64,000 bases of DNA from a virus: IMG/VR virus record IMGVR_UViG_3300001765_000052. One strand, 5' to 3'. Each line of letters begins with the position of its first letter. Position 1 is the first letter of the stretch. Of this stretch, positions 1,974 to 47,945 are shown piece by piece. The position numbers were made by a program, and so were the translations under genes. Below the pieces are notes generated by a model. That model saw only the letters and a list, made by a program, of their open reading frames with translations. It was not told where the DNA came from and did not search any database.

Positions 1974-2987
1974 ATGATTAATGAAACAGACGAAATATTA
2001 GTACCTGAAGAGCACCCAATATATATCGGATATTATTATATACCGAATAACATGGATCTTGTAATATCTAGAGATGGTAAAGTTATAAATTTAAATACAG
2101 GTAATAAATTAAAAAATAATATAGGCTTTGACGGATACGTAAGAACATCTTATCAATCAATTGATAAAATAAAAAGTTATAAAATTCATAGACTTTTAGC
2201 AGAAACATTTATTGGTCGTCCGCATAGACATAAAGATAAATCATTTGATATATTAGAAACTAATCATATTGACGGTGATAAATCGAATTATACATTAACA
2301 AATTTAGAATGGGTTACTACATCTGAAAACCAAATACACGCAATAACTATAGGGTTAACAAATTATAGACGTGTTCTAGCTAGAAACATACAAACTGGTG
2401 TAATTAGTGAATATGGTTGTGTTAATTTTTGCGCTGAGGAATTTGATATAAATGCAGATGGTTTGAGGCGGCATTTAAAATCTTCACTTGCTGGAACCAT
2501 AACCAAAAAATGGAATGTATTTAAATATGACGATGGTCAATTATGGCCCGCGCTAAAAAATAAAAATTATCATGAAAACAATTGGGATGTAGATTATGGT
2601 GTGTGGTATGTAACTAATGTTAGTACAGGATTTACATTCATATTTCACACATTGAATGATGCAGCTAAAGAGCACGGATTTACTGTTTCCGCTGTAAGTT
2701 CTGCAAGACTTAAATATGGTGAAAGTGTACCATATAAAGGGTATTTATTTACATACGATCACCAACCAACAGCCCATATACTTAAACAATTACCTGCTAG
2801 AGCTAAAAATGCCAGAGCTAAAGGTGTTCCTCTAAAAGTAACAAACACGGTAACCGGGGAGATATTTAATTATCCAAGTACTTATAGTGCTTCTAGAGAA
2901 TTAAATATAACAACTGGTCGGATAGAATTTGCTTTTATTAATCGTGAAGGTATTGTCGATAATTATAAATTTGAAAAAATTATTTGA
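1974..2987 (+). CDS. Free-standing HNH homing endonuclease with C-terminal NUMOD1/IENR1-like repeats
   Basis: HRLLAETFI...NHIDGDKSNY...NLEWVTTSENQIHA; own promoter motif at about 1920. Confidence 0.9.
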   Translation: MINETDEILVPEEHPIYIGYYYIPNNMDLVISRDGKVINLNTGNKLKNNIGFDGYVRTSYQSIDKIKSYKIHRLLAETFIGRPHRHKDKSFDILETNHIDGDKSNYTLTNLEWVTTSENQIHAITIGLTNYRRVLARNIQTGVISEYGCVNFCAEEFDINADGLRRHLKSSLAGTITKKWNVFKYDDGQLWPALKNKNYHENNWDVDYGVWYVTNVSTGFTFIFHTLNDAAKEHGFTVSAVSSARLKYGESVPYKGYLFTYDHQPTAHILKQLPARAKNARAKGVPLKVTNTVTGEIFNYPSTYSASRELNITTGRIEFAFINREGIVDNYKFEKII

Positions 2988-2990
2988 TGT

Positions 2991-3030
2991 TAATAATAGA
3001 CAATTGGAATATTCCAATTGTCTATTATTA
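2991..3030. terminator. Bidirectional terminator between the HNH gene and the polymerase/ribozyme transcript
   Basis: Palindrome TAATAATAGACAATTGGAATATTCCAATTGTCTATTATTA. Confidence 0.8.
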
Positions 3031-3331
3031 ATTATTTTATTTTTAAGCTTCTACACATCTCTGTGTAGAACAGACCATATCTTCACCCTTCTATTGCTAG
3101 TTAGGGTGTCTCCCATTTCCCTACCACTTGGCAGGTACGAGCAGCTACGCTCTGGCCGTTGAGCCTTACCCATATCTTTCGACTTAGGGTCTTGGTTGCT
3201 GATTGACTCTACCTAATATTTTTCAAACATATCATAACCTGCTTTCGCGGATATTGTAGTATATTAGTTTAGCAAGTTATTCCAGCAATTAAAGAGATTA
3301 TCTTCTGTAATATTACTATTACAGGACGCTA
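3027..3331 (-). ncRNA. Group I (IA2-like) ribozyme core without its own splice sites, overlapping the DNA polymerase stop codon
   Basis: Minus strand: P2 CUGUAAUA-GUAA-UAUUACAG, P AAUUGCUGGAA (3290-3280), Q AAUCAGCA, R CUCAACGGCCA, S AAGAUAUGGUCU (P7 GGCCA/UGGUC), P7.1/P7.2, P8, P9 hairpin 3070-3049, then a terminator. Confidence 0.9.
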
Positions 3332-3536
3332 GTATTTGTTTTTTCAAATTCAGTTAAAAGCATATCGAGTGAGGGTAATTTAAATAGACTACAAGCGATC
3401 TCTACTGAATTAGTAAAACCACCTGATAAATTTATCCCACTCATTCTTCTAGCTCTATCTTCTATTGAATCTATCTGTATTAATTCTCTACTGGTAGTTT
3501 CTTTAGATATGTTAAAACAAATACCCCCGTTCGGGT
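3319..3536 (-). CDS. DNA polymerase subunit, exon 3 ((Y)PNGGICFNISKETTSREL...TNTSVL*)
   Basis: Open frame with no start codon; completes motif A after removal of 3537..3586. Confidence 0.85.
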
Positions 3537-3586
3537 CTTTCGTGTTAAAATAAATTAATTAATTTATTCAGCTATTTAGAAAGTTA
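3537..3586 (-). other. 50-nt mini-intron with group I-type termini (exon U | UAA...GAAAG) and no catalytic core
   Basis: Removal joins T|AC into a Tyr codon and restores DLDVSSSYPNG and the frame. Confidence 0.85.
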
Positions 3587-3702
3587 ACGAGCTACTTACG
3601 TCCAAGTCAGCTGTAAATGCTCTGATGTTTGTACTTAGATTTGGATTCTCTTCTACAATCTTTAAACCATTATCTGCCACCATGTGCGCAGGAAGCATCA
3701 CG
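3587..3702 (-). CDS. DNA polymerase subunit, exon 2 (VMLPAHMVADNG...TADLDVSSS)
   Basis: 116 nt; phase-compatible with both flanking exons. Confidence 0.85.
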
Positions 3703-5416
3703 CTTTGTTTCCGGATCAGTTCGTTATTCTGAACCCGTTGTCTACAAAAGTGACAACTGCTATATGTCTCCATATAGAAAAGACTATATCATTACCCTAT
3801 ATCTATCGTAGGGTAGTTACTATTTCCACTCACTTGAGTGTACTCCCTCTCGGGATAGTCGTTGAACCTTACCCATATCCTAACTGGACTTAGGGTCTTG
3901 GCTGCTGATTGACTCTACCTTACTATTTTCAAACTGTGGCTTTGATTTTCATCTAGCAGTAGTTAGTAAGTCTAGCGAGTGGTTCCAGCAATTAAATAAC
4001 TTGTCATTCGTTAATTACTTAACGAAGGGGCCATCTGTTCTAGTTGTTTAATTCATAAAAAGACAAATTTTTACCTTTAATTTTTCTAATTCCATGACAC
4101 GTCTTTTCAATCTGGGCTATTGAACTATTTAATTCTTTAGCTGCTATTTTAGACGATGCATAGAAAGCGATTTCATTTCCATTCTCATCTCTAGATATTA
4201 TTCCTCTACCACCGGTAGTCGGAAATTCTCTATAGATAAGAAGCTCTTTATCAGAAAACACAGGCCACTCTATATTAAGAGTTTTGTATTTGAAAATAAA
4301 ACCATGTAAAGGTCGAGAACGAACACCGTTTACGTGTTCTCGGATTGCTGTTATATGCACCCCAGTACCATCTGAAGCAGAATCTATTCCTGAGAAAATT
4401 ATTATTTCACCACTGAATATATCTTTAGCCATAACAGTGAAATAACCACCAGAGTTTTTTATTCTCTGATCGGTTATCGGCCAATCCTTTTCTACTTTCC
4501 GTTTAAATATCCAACCATCTTCATAAAAGTATCTACGTTGTTCGTTTAATCTATTAGAAATAACCTGTGGAGAAATATTAGTTTCTTTTGAGGCTTTTTC
4601 CAGTGACATGAATTCAAACGTAATTCCAGTTATTAAATTTTTAGCTGATACAGGAATTGTGCTATTAGGCATAAGTCCATAATCTAATGCATGTTGGTTA
4701 TTTTGGGAATATGTTACCCATTCTAAATTATCTAGATTGTCAAATCCGGGAATTCCATTTTTATGATTGATTACTAATTTAAATGGACTTTTCGGATAAT
4801 GTATAAAAGTCAAACCAAGTGCCCTATGCCGAGAAATGTTTTTTGACTTCTCGTTATCCGAATTAGCCCACGCTTTAGCGTATCCACCTTTAATATTTTT
4901 CTTTTCTTGGTATTTAGTAAAGCACCAAGATTGAAAACTATCGTTTCTTATACTGTACAATATTCCTTCTTTTGAAATAGCGTATCTAGTATAATAAGGA
5001 ACATAATAAAACCCAGGTTTGTTTTCTAATTCAATTGGGCCATTATTGAAACCATAATAAATATTGATAGTATTTGTGTTATTTGGATTCTCATCGATAT
5101 AACGTGCTTCGATTCTATTCCATAAACACGTTGGTAGATTAACTGAATATTTAACTATTGCTATTATTACTCCTAACTCGTAATATTTTGCACCGTCTAC
5201 CCATTCTATCCAAACTTTTTTACACCTATCTATTTTTATGACTTCAATTAGGTTTTCATTTGAATCAAAAATATCTCCAAATTTATTTAGGTAATATCTT
5301 CCGTTACTAAACGGCAAAACTTTCTTTTCTTCAAAATAAAACATACGAAACCTTAATTGTAGATTATCATACAATATATATTAAGGTCTCATAAAATATG
5401 TTAAGAACAATTTAAA
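3703..5416 (-). mobile_element. Group I intron (IA2-like, 1714 nt) with HNH gene in the P1 loop
   Basis: P AAUUGCUGGAA (3993-3983), Q AAUCAGCAG, R GUUCAACGACUA, S GAUAUAGUCU; 5' exon GGGU pairs IGS GCCC (4031-4028); ends CAAAG; splicing gives SGWV-VMLPAH. Confidence 0.92.
4040..5344 (-). CDS. Intron-encoded HNH homing endonuclease with NUMOD1/IENR1-like repeats
   Basis: SRHRALGLTFI..VINHKNGIPG..NLEWVTYSQNNQHA; ATG 5344 preceded by AAGG (track start 5374). Confidence 0.9.
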   Translation of the reverse strand: MFYFEEKKVLPFSNGRYYLNKFGDIFDSNENLIEVIKIDRCKKVWIEWVDGAKYYELGVIIAIVKYSVNLPTCLWNRIEARYIDENPNNTNTINIYYGFNNGPIELENKPGFYYVPYYTRYAISKEGILYSIRNDSFQSWCFTKYQEKKNIKGGYAKAWANSDNEKSKNISRHRALGLTFIHYPKSPFKLVINHKNGIPGFDNLDNLEWVTYSQNNQHALDYGLMPNSTIPVSAKNLITGITFEFMSLEKASKETNISPQVISNRLNEQRRYFYEDGWIFKRKVEKDWPITDQRIKNSGGYFTVMAKDIFSGEIIIFSGIDSASDGTGVHITAIREHVNGVRSRPLHGFIFKYKTLNIEWPVFSDKELLIYREFPTTGGRGIISRDENGNEIAFYASSKIAAKELNSSIAQIEKTCHGIRKIKGKNLSFYELNN

Positions 5417-6762
5417 ACCCACCCCGATAAACTTGTAGTTTCTGTATCTACATCTTCTTTCATTTCACCACTTGTAGACCCTATTACTTTACCATTCTTT
5501 AAACAAAAATGGTGAAGTGAATCGATTAAACGTTTAGGTTGACTATTGAAATTATTATAATCGCTACAACCTGAAAACATAGGCAAAGAAAGGGATAAAT
5601 CGTTTGTTTTTTCATCTAACATCTCCATTGATATACAGTCAAACATATTATAAACTATATATTCTAGTTTATAATTCTTTTGCATAACCTGGTGCCATTT
5701 TAAACCAGTATATTCATCAGCTTCCTTAAATCTTAATTTACCAATATCGAGTTCTTTACCAAGAATAGCATCCAATGAATAACTTTTTTCTTCAGGTGAA
5801 CCCGTTCTAATTTTCTTATATGCACACATGGCATCTATCCAATAAAAAGAAGATGGTGCAAATACACTGTGCCATCTATCACTGGGTTTATAAGAAATAA
5901 CCACACCAGATGCAGTAGTTTTTTTAGGTAAACCTTCTTTATATTTAAAGTATTTGTATTCTGGTGGTACACTGGGGTCACTCATTATTTCTGCTATATT
6001 GGCACCAGCTCTATCACATGCACTAACTATTTTACCCATATCGAAAGAAAGATTCCACACAGATAAAAAATCTGGCATCCATTCATGAGCTTTTGCTATA
6101 GATACTTTAACTACATCTATTTCGCTTGGGACTATAACAATCTGTGCCTTTATTTTTCTTTTCTCGAAAATTTCTGATAGGTATTTGGTACATAGCATTT
6201 TTACTTTTTGCTCTACATCAATAAACCCTTTTACAAATGATTCTTGTACTACAGTAATAAGTTTATCTTTGAATGACACTGTAGCCATTATGATTTGTTC
6301 AGTGCCATTGATAACATCTGTTTCAGTATCAAATACGGCATTGGTGCTAGGTGTAGTAACATCCCACTTATCTTTATATTTTTGTTTAATAATAGCGGTA
6401 GATGAAATATCTGTTCCATAAATAAATGGAGATTCTTGTAATTCCCTCATTCCTTTTTTAAACCATGGTTTACCTATAGATCTAGCAACGGAATTAACCA
6501 GATTTCTTTGAGTAGATTTAAATTGATCTAATTCATCTATACTAGCCCACTCCTTCTTGGAGGTATGGTTTTGTAAGCCTTTCTTTGTAATATAGTAGTC
6601 GCGCTGAAAATTTGAAATCTGCCTTAGGTTGGGTTTAGTGCTACCGTCCGGGTTATGGATGATTTCCTTGACTACATGTAGATCATTATATGGATCTGCA
6701 TTTGACTTAACGTAAGTTGCGAAGCGGCATTCTATGATGGGCTCTGGCGTTTTGGTTTCCAT
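5417..6762 (-). CDS. phiKZ-type split family-B DNA polymerase subunit (3'-5' exonuclease + motif A; gp82-like), exon 1; spliced product 559 aa
   Basis: ExoI VFDTETD, ExoII WNLSFDM, ExoIII YNMFD; exons 1346+116+218 = 1680 nt. Confidence 0.88.
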
Positions 6763-6830: not shown

Positions 6831-8150
6831 ATGAGAGAAAAATTAATGCAATATGATATTGCAAACGAAACAATTGATTTCCAGGATGGTAAACTATTTA
6901 AGAATTTAACTGCACAGATAGAAGAAATTCGTTCAGTTAATACAGGTACAAATGTACCTATACTTTTTTCCGAACCATTTGAAAAACTTAGCAAACTTAT
7001 TCAAAGTGAAACTGGGTTAGATGTCAATTTTGAATCCGGCGACGGATTCGCAGTGCTGTTTCCTACAATGAGCAATAACCATACGCTGCTTGATAACTAT
7101 TATAAGGAGTTACTTGAACAATACAAAACATATAATGATAGTTTTGCAGATGTGCGTTTAGTGCTTAAAAATATGAATGCTAAAATAATAAATGGATCAG
7201 TGTCTCTAAATGATTCCATGGTTACTGGTGTATTTACTAAAATCCCAATAACAATGATAATGGTTAACACTATGTTTAATAAAAATTGCAACTACACTTC
7301 AGCCGAAGTAGCTGCTATAATGCTGCATGAAATTGGGCATATTTTTACAGGTATGGAATTTTTATCCAGAACTATTACAACTAACCAAGTTTTAGCTAGT
7401 ATGACAAGAGCGTTAGATAAAACTGTTCCAAGTAATGATCGAGATGTCATATTTGCAAAAGGGATCGAGTTACTAAAACTCGATGATGATCAAAGACAAG
7501 CTTTATTAAATAATAAAGATAAAAAAACATTAGCAATTATTGTGCTAGATGCAAATATTAAATTATCAGTTAGTGAATTAGGTAAAAGTATTTATGATGT
7601 TAACTCATGTGAACAGTTAGCGGATATGTTTGCTGCCAGGCACGGTGCAGGTAGGGAAATGGTTACTGCACTTGATAAATTATACACTGAGTTCGATAAT
7701 GATGGTAGTATATCTTACAATGGCTATGTTCTTCGGGCGTCTTTAATTGTAGGTTTATTTGGTTTACCAAATATAATTGTTTCACTTAGTCTAGTTGGTG
7801 CTGTATGGTTTATAGGTTTTTGTTTTATGACTTTACTTATGAATAAAGAATGCGATACTTACGATAGTCCAAAGGCAAGAGCTAATAGAATCAAGATGCA
7901 AAATATTGAGCTTTTAAAAGACAAAAAAATAAGCAAAGAAAGAAAGCAATCTGTAATAGAAACAAATATTATAATTGACAAGGTTATTGAAAATTATAGT
8001 GATAATCTAGGTTTCTATGAAACACTTGCTTATTATTTAAAACCTAGTTACAGAAATGCACATAAATATCAACTTCTCCAGCAAGACCTGGAAAAGCTTG
8101 CTGGAAATTCATTATTTGAAACATCAGCTAAACTATCTTTATTATCCTAA
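6831..8150 (+). CDS. Virion-associated zincin-like metallopeptidase with a hydrophobic segment
   Basis: AAIMLHEIGH (HExxH), EQLADMFAARHG; position in the phiKZ-like virion block. Confidence 0.7.
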   Translation: MREKLMQYDIANETIDFQDGKLFKNLTAQIEEIRSVNTGTNVPILFSEPFEKLSKLIQSETGLDVNFESGDGFAVLFPTMSNNHTLLDNYYKELLEQYKTYNDSFADVRLVLKNMNAKIINGSVSLNDSMVTGVFTKIPITMIMVNTMFNKNCNYTSAEVAAIMLHEIGHIFTGMEFLSRTITTNQVLASMTRALDKTVPSNDRDVIFAKGIELLKLDDDQRQALLNNKDKKTLAIIVLDANIKLSVSELGKSIYDVNSCEQLADMFAARHGAGREMVTALDKLYTEFDNDGSISYNGYVLRASLIVGLFGLPNIIVSLSLVGAVWFIGFCFMTLLMNKECDTYDSPKARANRIKMQNIELLKDKKISKERKQSVIETNIIIDKVIENYSDNLGFYETLAYYLKPSYRNAHKYQLLQQDLEKLAGNSLFETSAKLSLLS

Positions 8151-47868: not shown

Positions 47869-47945
47869 CCACTAGTGGCCAAGTCGGGTTTAAGGCAACG
47901 ACCTCATAAGTCGTCGATTCATTGGTTCAAATCCAATCTAGTGGA
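47869..47945 (+). tRNA. tRNA with CAU anticodon (probably Ile2, otherwise elongator Met); CCA not encoded
   Basis: CCACTAG/CTAGTGG acceptor, GCC/GGC D-stem, ACGAC-CTCATAA-GTCGT, ATTGG-TTCAAAT-CCAAT. Confidence 0.9.

What the first reader, a model, noticed from the sequence alone, without database searches (positions are those of the whole stretch)
3027..3702. 'Inside-out' group I intron: 50-nt core-less mini-intron in polymerase motif A with the ribozyme relocated to the 3' end of the same gene
Seen in the sequence (minus strand): exon 2 ends GAC GTA AGT AGC TCG T, followed by 50 nt (UAACUUUC...UUAACACGAAAG, 3586-3537) and then AC CCG AAC GGG. Removing the 50 nt restores the frame and family-B motif A (DLDVSSSYPNG), and the junctions follow group I rules (exon ends in U, intron ends in G). 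The insert is far too short for a catalytic core. A complete core (P2-P9, intact P7 GGCCA/UGGUC) starts in the last codons of exon 3, about 200 nt downstream, interrupts no gene and runs into a terminator. Two pairings link it to the mini-intron. (a) UAGCG (3331-3327) sits in the same register before P2 as the GCCC guide of intron 1, and pairs CGU|UA across the mini-intron 5' splice site with the canonical U.G wobble. The guide changes with the target (GCC:GGU in intron 1, GCG:CGU here). (b) The tail after P9 (UUAAAAAUAAAAUAAUUAAU, 3046-3027) pairs 18 bp, with one mismatch and one bulge, to the mini-intron segment 3563-3545 just upstream of the terminal G. Inference: the ribozyme folds back, or acts in trans, to excise the mini-intron and stays in the mRNA, which would make an essential gene dependent on it. 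From memory, core-less mini-introns have been reported in other jumbo phages (needs a literature check). I do not know a description of this dedicated downstream core with docking arms. Caveat: pairing (b) is AU-only and P1 is short.
Basis: partly seen in the sequence, partly recalled or inferred. Interest (0 to 1): 0.97.

Follow-up and report, generated by a model that had tools for sequence, protein, structure and literature searches.

The report
Permuted group I intron, detached ribozyme
A giant phage's essential DNA polymerase gene is broken by a 50-base insert with no catalytic part, and comparison with related phages indicates that a self-splicing-type ribozyme parked behind the gene's stop codon reaches back to cut it out, a natural version of ribozymes that so far had only been engineered.

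Summary
On the minus strand, a phiKZ-type family-B DNA polymerase gene is cut in motif A by a 50-nt insert (3586-3537). Removing it exactly rebuilds the invariant Tyr codon (T|AC) and the frame. A complete group I core (Rfam 73 bits) starts in the gene's last codons and ends before a hairpin.

Six metagenomic relatives share the layout, with inserts of 5, 49, 51, 51, 51 and 52 nt. All begin after U, end in G and restore S-Y-P-N/S-G. About 25 relatives with intact motif A have no downstream core.

The guide beside P2 pairs with the 5' splice site about 257 nt upstream. The first intron base covaries with its partner (U:A, C:G, A:U; G:C in conventional introns at this site). The bases just after P9 pair with the mini-intron through different sequences in different lineages. 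This helix matches P9.1 opened at its loop, and the mini-intron hairpin matches P9.2.

I read it as a permuted group I intron whose ribozyme stays in the 3' UTR, like engineered spliceozymes. Splicing is untested because no RNA data exist. This scan noted core-less mini-introns in other phages. I found no publication.

The parts
5417..6762 (-). Polymerase exon 1 (exonuclease domain), ends ...TGG GT
   Evidence: ORF. tblastn finds phiKZ-like phage DNA polymerases. The junction W-V|V-MLPAH fits the homologues' GWIVMLP.
3703..5416 (-). Intron 1: a conventional group I intron with an HNH endonuclease ORF (5374-4040) in L1, core at 4082-3760, last base G at 3703
   Evidence: Rfam 89.1 bits. Pfam HNH_3 and I-HmuI NUMOD-like. 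A relative in run X3 lacks it (joint 3599/5426).
3587..3702 (-). Exon 2, ends AGC TCG T (first base of the Tyr codon)
3537..3586 (-). 50-nt core-less mini-intron. UA (3586-3585) extends P1. Closing stem CUUUC 3583-3579 pairs with GAAAG 3541-3537. Linker with AGCU at 3573-3570 (P9.1 3' strand). Hairpin 3569-3548 (P9.2 equivalent). Terminal G at 3537.
   Evidence: The same fold is predicted in six relatives. The hairpin covaries. The closing stem covaries (CUUUA/UAAAG in L019, GUUUAUG/CAUAAAC in L074).
3319..3536 (-). Exon 3 (AC CCG AAC GGG ... stop TAA 3321-3319). Its last codons overlap the guide and P2.
   Evidence: Aligns with YPNGE..FNISKETT..GINLSGG of RP12 and FLC9.
3327..3331 (-). Internal guide UAGCG. 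Pairs with CGU|UA across the 5' splice site 257 nt upstream, with a U.G wobble at U3587:G3329.
   Evidence: P1 table with covariation across 9 loci.
3051..3357 (-). Group I catalytic core (P2-P9), in the 3' UTR
   Evidence: Rfam 73.2 bits, E 1e-16, full model. 31 of 50 predicted pairs show compensatory changes among 9 related cores.
3045..3050 (-). AAGCUU directly after P9: the 5' strand of the split P9.1 helix
   Evidence: In RNAduplex, the tail's first bases pair with mini-intron nt about 9-18 in all six loci that have a ~50-nt insert. Conventional relatives have a P9.1 hairpin at this place.
2989..3032 (.). Perfect hairpin between the convergent polymerase and HNH genes; probable transcript end
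   Evidence: A strong hairpin follows the tail in all relatives.
1974..2987 (+). Free-standing HNH homing-endonuclease gene, convergent, just behind the core. Present or absent among relatives.
   Evidence: Pfam HNH_3 and NUMOD1. The same gene is in L016. It is absent in L017, L019 and the X3 relative. L022 and L073 carry an I-TevI-like gene there instead.

Best explanation
This is a permuted (discontinuous) group I intron. The RNA parts that normally form one intron are laid out in the order: 5' splice site, start of L1, P9.1 3' strand, P9.2 hairpin, terminal G, exon 3, guide (IGS), P2-P9 core, P9.1 5' strand, terminator hairpin.

Proposed mechanism (inferred): on the primary transcript the core folds in the 3' UTR. 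Its guide UAGCG pairs with CGU|UA at the splice site 257 nt upstream, forming P1. The bases just after P9 pair with the mini-intron, re-forming P9.1. A closing stem (CUUUC/GAAAG) stacks next to P1 and brings the terminal G to the active site in place of the missing P10. An external guanosine then attacks after U3587. The freed exon 2 attacks after G3537. A 50-nt intron is released, and the product is exon 1-2-3 mRNA that still carries the ribozyme as its 3' UTR.

Shown: the anatomy, its conservation, the co-occurrence of insert and core, the covariation, and the homology to conventional introns at the same codon. Inferred: catalysis and the order of events. I put removal at the RNA level at about 0.93, and removal by this particular core at about 0.8.
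For: 1. Exact removal restores the frame and the invariant Tyr in 7 of 7 loci. Insert lengths are 5, 49, 50, 51, 51, 51 and 52 nt, covering all three residues mod 3. Every insert begins after U and ends in G.
2. All 7 loci have a group I core directly after exon 3. About 25 relatives with intact motif A have none.
3. P1: CGU:GCG is invariant, and the first intron base covaries with its guide partner. It is U:A in the window family and L074, C:G in L022 and A:U in L073. In conventional introns at the same site it is G:C (L021, L099, L075) and A:U (L098).
4. Split P9.1: AAGCUU with AAGCU (window family, 4-9 bp), AAAUCUU with AAGAUUU (L022), CUGUUUUUC with GAAAACAG (L074). It is always the tail's first bases pairing with mini-intron nt about 9-18.
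5. Conventional site-3 introns have a P9.1 hairpin right after P9, then a P9.2 hairpin with loop UAACGA. The mini-intron hairpin carries loop UAACG in L017, L022 and L074.
6. The closing stem and the hairpin covary.
7. The cores are under structural selection: 31 of 50 pairs show compensatory changes.
8. The 5-nt version (L073) has a textbook continuous guide GGAU-GCGA that pairs with UCGU (P1) and AUCC (P10), with AAAUG bulged out.
9. In the relatives the polymerase gene has no other intron, so this core is the only ribozyme at hand.
10. Engineered group I ribozymes do exactly this in E. coli, using P1 at their 5' end and a P9.x duplex at their 3' end (PMC4094466).
Against: There is no RNA evidence of any kind, because these are uncultured metagenomic phages. 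In the window itself P1 is only 5 bp and the split P9.1 helix only 4 bp (14% of shuffles do as well). P10 is absent in all ~50-nt versions. The number of independent lineages is small (about 4), so the covariation statistics are modest. On a tree of the cores the permuted forms are not one clade, which requires either repeated origin or core exchange. The guide and P2 overlap the last codons, so translation would compete with folding.
Confidence: 0.8

Rival explanations
1. The insert is removed from the RNA, but not by the downstream core. Removal could be by a protein endonuclease plus ligase that recognises the closing stem, or by another ribozyme acting in trans. The 3' UTR core would then be an unrelated element or a decaying intron.
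For: The mini-intron folds into a compact stem-hairpin on its own. P1 and P9.1 are short in the window.
Against: Core and insert co-occur strictly, 7 of 7 against 0 of about 25. The guide covaries with the distant splice site. The tail covaries with the mini-intron. The core is structurally conserved. The 5-nt insert of L073 has no stem for a protein to recognise.
Confidence: 0.08
2. Translational bypassing, as in T4 gene 60. Ribosomes hop over a 50-nt coding gap and no RNA processing occurs.
For: The window's gap is 50 nt, the same length as the gene 60 gap (own knowledge). It carries stop codons and a hairpin.
Against: The Tyr codon exists only after RNA joining (T + AC/AT). A hop would give Ser-Asp-Pro, yet Tyr is kept in 128 of 128 homologues. 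There are no matched take-off and landing codons. A stop does not follow the putative take-off codon in L017, L019 or L074. Gap lengths range from 5 to 52 nt.
Confidence: 0.02
3. The core is an ordinary cis-splicing intron near the 3' end of the gene that joins exon 3 to a short further exon. The 50-nt insert is a separate problem.
For: In intron 1 the 3' splice site lies 57 nt beyond P9, so a distal 3' splice site would not be unusual. L019 and L016 carry a copy of the exon-3 end behind the core.
Against: No upstream sequence near the core pairs with the guide (the Rfam P1 is full of mismatches). The homologues' conserved region ends where exon 3 ends. The tails differ completely among relatives and run into a hairpin. 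The guide matches the motif-A site instead.
Confidence: 0.05
4. The polymerase gene is a pseudogene or the insert is an assembly artefact. The insert is debris of a deleted intron and is not removed.
For: These are metagenomic assemblies, and the insert breaks the gene.
Against: The same layout occurs in independent assemblies from JGI, ENA, NCBI and Logan, and several are found on 3-7 contigs. Exon 3 stays open and conserved in every case. Covariation shows selection on the RNA. It is the phage's only copy of an essential gene in each locus examined.
Confidence: 0.03

Closest known systems
Conventional group I introns at the same codon of the same gene in related phages (loci L021, L099, L098, L075), and phage group I introns in general (T4 td/nrdB, SPO1 and LUZ24 DNA polymerase introns)
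   Same: Same insertion point (Tyr codon split T|AY). Same GCG guide pairing with CGU and a U.G wobble. Homologous core (alignment A3). Terminal G. P9.1 and P9.2 after P9. Homing-endonuclease gene attached.
   Different: In those introns the core lies between the splice sites and is excised. Here the 3' splice site and all of exon 3 lie upstream of the guide, only 5-52 nt are excised, and the core stays on the mRNA.
Engineered spliceozymes (Amini, Olson, Muller 2014, PMC4094466; PMC4509937) and trans excision-splicing ribozymes (Bell, Testa; PMC2532722)
   Same: A group I ribozyme removes an internal segment that has no catalytic core. The ribozyme's 5' end forms P1 with the 5' splice site. 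Its 3' end forms a P9.x duplex with the intron's 3' part (spliceozyme), or P1 plus P10 flank a short bulged segment (TES; compare L073, 5 nt).
   Different: Those are man-made, act in trans, and derive from the Tetrahymena or Pneumocystis introns. Here the arrangement is natural and tethered in cis behind the last exon, with an extra closing stem instead of P10.
Naturally fragmented, trans-spliced group I introns of organelles (placozoan and Isoetes cox1, Gigaspora; recalled from my own knowledge, not checked here)
   Same: The intron is broken in peripheral loops and reassembles by base pairing.
   Different: There the two halves, each with its exon, lie on separate transcripts and the core is still removed. 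Here there is one transcript, the exons are in the correct order, there are two breaks (L1 and L9.1), and the core is retained.
Core-less mini-introns that appear to borrow a neighbouring intron's ribozyme, noted by this scan in phage capsid and portal genes (AI notes e1-3409714, e1-3409131, e1-3686441 and others)
   Same: An insert of 29-77 nt with group I splice-site rules and no core, placed upstream of a complete core.
   Different: In those notes the helper is itself an intron that interrupts the gene. Here the core interrupts nothing and seems to exist only for the mini-intron. Here there are also conventional homologues at the same site that show how the parts correspond.
T4 gene 60 translational bypass
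   Same: A 50-nt stop-containing gap in an essential phage replication gene.
   Different: There are no matched codons. The Tyr codon must be assembled at the RNA level. Gap length is variable. A ribozyme is linked to the gap.

Membership tests
Group I intron (Rfam RF00028) | Conserved catalytic core fold (P3-P9) recognised by the covariance model | tested here: met
   3357-3051, 73.2 bits against a gathering score of 50, E 1e-16, full model. The relatives score 49.8-92 bits. 31 of 50 pairs show compensatory changes.
Group I intron (Rfam RF00028) | The 5' splice site follows a U that forms a U.G wobble with the internal guide (P1) | tested here: met
   CGU|UA pairs with UAGCG, including U3587.G3329. 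The +1 position covaries in 9 loci.
Group I intron (Rfam RF00028) | The excised segment ends in G (omega G) | tested here: met
   7 of 7 permuted loci, and the conventional L021 and L099.
Group I intron (Rfam RF00028) | The catalytic core lies between the two splice sites and is excised with the intron | tested here: not met
   The core starts 205 nt downstream of the 3' splice site, after exon 3.
Group I intron (Rfam RF00028) | P10 pairing of the 3' exon with the guide | tested here: not met
   There are no P10 pairs from the first base of the 3' exon in the window or in the other ~50-nt versions. It is present (4 bp) in L073 and in the conventional L021.
Group I intron (Rfam RF00028) | Guanosine-dependent self-splicing | not testable with these tools
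   No RNA run holds the locus. This needs in vitro transcription.
Trans-spliced (fragmented) group I introns | Exons and intron halves on separate transcripts | tested here: not met
   All parts lie on one strand within 660 nt, with no promoter-like site between them.
Gene-60-type translational bypass | Matched take-off and landing codons, with a stop directly after take-off | tested here: not met
   No matched codons flank the gap. The stop position varies. Tyr cannot be decoded without joining.
Chimallivirus-type family-B DNA polymerase (PHROG 3011) | Full-length match to the family profile, including motif A DxDxSxSYP | tested here: met
   The uninterrupted homologue P0008 matches phrog_3011 at E 5e-198 over positions 12-567 of 576. 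The spliced window product has 559 aa and no stops.

The most novel reading that the evidence does not exclude
Phage group I ribozymes can exist as stand-alone, guide-programmed splicing enzymes rather than as introns. Under this reading the core behind the polymerase gene is a natural 'spliceozyme'. It could act in trans, including on co-infecting relatives or on other mini-introns. It has been recruited or exchanged more than once: cores of two different lineages serve the same site. It reduces the visible 'intron' to as little as 5 nt, which annotation would take for a frameshift error.
Probability: 0.3. Interest if true: 0.95.

Novelty: new variant of a known kind. Interest (0 to 1): 0.88.

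Why it matters
If splicing is confirmed, this would be, as far as I could find, the first natural group I ribozyme shown to remove a segment that it is not part of.

- It gives a natural precedent for engineered trans-excision ribozymes and spliceozymes. It also offers compact scaffolds with a known guide, a docking helix and a closing stem.
- It shows a concrete, stepwise route from a self-splicing intron to a separate catalyst plus a minimal substrate intron. That is the kind of transition proposed for the origin of the spliceosome from group II introns.
- It makes an essential replication gene depend on an RNA in its own 3' UTR. This bears on intron persistence, on homing by the adjacent free-standing endonucleases, and on gene expression in nucleus-forming phages, where transcription and translation are separated.
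- There is a practical consequence. Inserts of 5-52 nt like these are read by gene callers as frameshifts, pseudogenes or split genes. In the databases the polymerase is recorded as truncated proteins of about 490 aa.

Tried and rejected
- RNA evidence: no RNA holder was listed for the locus. Only DNA contigs could be laid.
- A search with the exon-3 peptide found only the window's own ORF.
- Further scans added no new permuted case. These were IMG/VR and JGI metagenomes, which returned only duplicates (L024 = L016, L025 = L017, L030 = L022).
- Cultured phages: of 290 records with this gene, I saw only part of the list. The one clear interruption that I inspected is Goslar. It has a conventional HNH-bearing intron one codon block upstream (FVAD|LDISSSYPNG), and Rfam's gathering threshold misses it. 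I therefore found no cultured host for an experiment, but I did not exclude one.
- P0152 gave no DNA. L026 ends at a contig edge.
- Gene-60-type bypass and frameshifting: rejected.
- P10 in the window: absent.
- A local P1 hairpin for the core near 3332-3360: none found. The Rfam P1 alignment there is mostly mismatches.
- Literature: searches for mini-intron, permuted, trans-splicing, spliceozyme, trans excision-splicing and jumbo-phage introns found no natural description. The library lacks most subscription journals.

Full report
**What is there**

The window comes from an uncultured phiKZ-like (chimallivirus-type) jumbo phage found in microbial-mat metagenomes. No whole genome is held for it. 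On the minus strand lies the phage's family-B DNA polymerase gene (PHROG 3011).

- Exon 1 runs 6762-5417.
- Intron 1 runs 5416-3703. It is a conventional group I intron with an HNH endonuclease ORF in its P1 loop (Rfam 89 bits; Pfam).
- Exon 2 (3702-3587) ends AGC TCG T.
- The next 50 nt (3586-3537) hold stop codons and no ribozyme core.
- Exon 3 (3536-3319) starts AC CCG AAC GGG.

Joining the three exons gives one open frame of 559 codons that reads ...DLDVSSSYPNGGICFNISKE.... Uninterrupted homologues read DLDVSASYPNG (RP12 and FLC9). All 128 database homologues that read through the motif have Tyr at the split codon.

A second full-length group I core (Rfam 73 bits, E 1e-16) covers 3357-3051. 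The stop codon (3321-3319) lies inside its P2. A perfect hairpin (2990-3031) and a convergent HNH gene (1974-2987) follow. The homologues' conserved region ends where exon 3 ends, so the core interrupts nothing.

**Relatives**

Protein searches show three interruption hot spots in this gene: after GW, after HVGD, and after DLDVSxS. I fetched the contigs of the proteins that break at the third site.

Six loci repeat the window's layout:

| Locus | Insert length (nt) |
|---|---|
| L016 | 51 |
| L017 | 51 |
| L019 | 49 |
| L022 | 51 |
| L074 | 52 |
| L073 | 5 (AAAUG) |

Every insert starts after TCGT and ends in G. Its exact removal restores S-Y-P-N/S-G and an open frame of 553-570 codons. The lengths cover all three residues mod 3. 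The three inserts that are multiples of three carry in-frame stops. Frameshifting therefore cannot explain them. A ribosome hop cannot create the Tyr codon, which exists only as T + AC/AT after joining.

In each of the seven loci a group I core begins at the end of exon 3. L074 scores 49.8 bits, E 1.6e-11. In the relatives the gene has no other intron. About 25 loci with intact motif A, scanned with flanks, have no core behind the gene. A contig of a roughly 85%-identical phage in another sample (run X3) also has the insert and the core, but lacks intron 1 and the HNH gene.

**Does the core touch the insert?**

1. *P1.* The guide directly 5' of P2 pairs with the 5' splice site 217-268 nt upstream. 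CGU:GCG, with the U.G wobble, is constant. The first intron base covaries with its partner: U:A in the window family and L074 (UUU:AAA there), C:G in L022, and A:U in L073.
2. *Conventional homologues.* Conventional introns sit at exactly this codon position in other relatives (L021, L099, L098, L075). They use the same GCG guide, with G:C or A:U at that position. The downstream core's guide is therefore the guide for this site.
3. *A docking helix.* The first bases after P9 pair with mini-intron nt about 9-18 in all six ~50-nt versions, always in the same place but with different sequences. The pairs are AAGCUU(UUU) with (AAAA)AGCU in the window family (4 bp in the window, 7-9 bp in L016, L017 and L019), AAAUCUU with AAGAUUU in L022, and CUGUUUUUC with GAAAACAG in L074.
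4. *Correspondence of parts.* In the conventional introns, P9 is followed at once by a P9.1 hairpin (CGGGUGU/ACACCGG), and then by a P9.2 hairpin with loop UAACGA. The mini-intron hairpin has loop UAACG in L017, L022 and L074. The docking helix is therefore P9.1 opened at its loop, the mini-intron hairpin is P9.2, and the other break is in L1.
5. *A closing stem.* The ~50-nt versions lack P10. Instead they have a closing stem that joins the two ends of the mini-intron and covaries: CUUUC/GAAAG, CUUUA/UAAAG and GUUUAUG/CAUAAAC. The hairpin also covaries.
6. *The 5-nt version.* L073 has none of this. It has a continuous guide GGAU-GCGA that pairs with UCGU (P1) and AUCC (P10), with AAAUG bulged out.
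7. *Selection on the cores.* The cores are under selection for structure: 31 of 50 predicted pairs show compensatory changes.

**Mechanism**

The parts of one group I intron are present but permuted. The 3' splice site and the last exon lie upstream of the guide and core. I infer ordinary two-step group I chemistry. P1 and the re-formed P9.1 assemble the active fold. The closing stem (or P10 in L073) presents the terminal G. The mini-intron is released, and the ribozyme remains as the 3' UTR of the mature mRNA.

Because the guide and P2 overlap the last codons, folding must precede translation. That fits phages which transcribe inside a nucleus-like shell (PMC12908238), but this link is speculation.

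Engineered ribozymes show the chemistry is feasible. Trans excision-splicing ribozymes use P1, P9.0 and P10. Spliceozymes use P1 at the ribozyme's 5' end and a P9.2 duplex at its 3' end, and they remove 100-nt introns in E. coli (PMC4094466; PMC2532722).

Pairing (a) is supported. Pairing (b) exists in the window (17 nt, 94% complementary). However, it uses the segment that forms the covarying hairpin, it is matched by 2.6% of shuffled tails, and it is not found in relatives. The idea of a tail docking arm is right, but the register is not. The window's own conserved helix is weak (4 bp). Variants in runs X2 and X3 lack U3574, which would extend it to 5 bp.

**Origin (inferred)**

In L019 a perfect 14-nt copy of the exon-3 end (TGCTGGATTCATTT) flanks the core block on both sides. 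In L016 a 12-nt copy does the same (0 of 500 and 2 of 500 shuffles). This fits the following sequence of events: the 3' splice-site segment plus exon 3 were duplicated ahead of the core, and the distal copy then decayed. Every intermediate would remain functional.

On a tree of the cores, the window family groups with the conventional introns of the GW site, while L074 groups with conventional introns of the motif-A site. The permuted form therefore either arose more than once or exchanged cores. The tree rests on about 300 nt and is weak.

**Novelty**

I found no description of a natural arrangement of this kind in the searchable literature. This scan has AI notes of core-less mini-introns that seem to borrow a neighbouring intron's ribozyme in phage capsid and portal genes. 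The same stretch was also flagged from an overlapping window.

What is new here is a dedicated core that is not an intron of anything, the precise correspondence of its parts to conventional introns at the same site, and a 5-nt extreme. I class it as a new variant of a known kind.

The main gap is that splicing has not been observed. No RNA run holds the locus, and I found no cultured phage with the layout. Goslar's interruption is a conventional intron.

Noticed in passing
L073:4487-4491 (with guide at 4700-4708): A 5-nt 'intron' (AAAUG) in motif A of the polymerase of another phage, with a downstream core whose guide GGAUGCGA pairs continuously with both exon ends. It is seen on 6 contigs. 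Gene callers would take it for a frameshift error.
   Followed up: partly
L019:6698-6711 and 7024-7037; L016:2876-2887 and 3187-3198: Perfect direct repeats of the exon-3 3' end (14 nt and 12 nt) flank the detached core block. This is a likely footprint of the DNA rearrangement that produced the permuted order. It is not significant in the window or in the other loci.
   Followed up: partly
window 3703-5416 (-): Intron 1 carries its 444-aa HNH endonuclease ORF in the P1 loop, so its 5' splice site and guide are 1.38 kb apart. Its 3' splice site lies 57 nt beyond the Rfam match. It is absent in relatives L016, L017, L019 and the X3 contig.
   Followed up: partly
homologous proteins P0005-P0203: The polymerase gene has three recurrent interruption sites among several hundred metagenomic relatives: after GW, after HVGD (before LDV), and after DLDVSxS. 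As a result, the databases hold it as truncated products of about 450, 485 and 490-505 aa.
   Followed up: partly
window 3570-3592 joined to 3331 in a contig of run X1: A 764-nt contig of a relative seems to join the start of the mini-intron directly to the guide. That would be a conventional P1 hairpin (CGU|UA, loop, UAGCG). Only 23 nt lie on one side and the sequence could not be fetched.
   Followed up: no
window 3542-3547 (UUAACA); loops of L017, L022, L074 mini-intron hairpins and L099 P9.2: UUAAC(A) between the hairpin and the closing stem, and the hairpin loop UAACG, are conserved across otherwise diverged versions. They may be tertiary contacts.
   Followed up: no
window 3319-3331; L016, L017, L019, L022, L074 equivalents: The stop codon falls at different places inside the guide/P2 region in different relatives: UAG of the guide, P2 stem, or P2 loop. 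The C-terminal residues are therefore dictated by the RNA, and translation must unfold the ribozyme's 5' part.
   Followed up: partly
window 1974-2987 (+); L022:6067-6714; L073:5090-5737: Free-standing homing-endonuclease genes of two different families sit convergently right behind the detached core: HNH in the window and L016, I-TevI-like in L022 and L073. They are missing in other relatives.
   Followed up: partly
L100 (Escherichia phage Goslar, NC_048170.1 81189-82950): Goslar's polymerase has a conventional HNH-bearing group I intron at FVAD|LDISSSYPNG. The second exon is not annotated, and Rfam's gathering threshold does not report the core.
   Followed up: partly
window 47869-47945 (+): A tRNA gene (Rfam 58.6 bits). 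The anticodon loop reads CUCAUAA, so it is probably a CAU anticodon (Met or Ile2).
   Followed up: no
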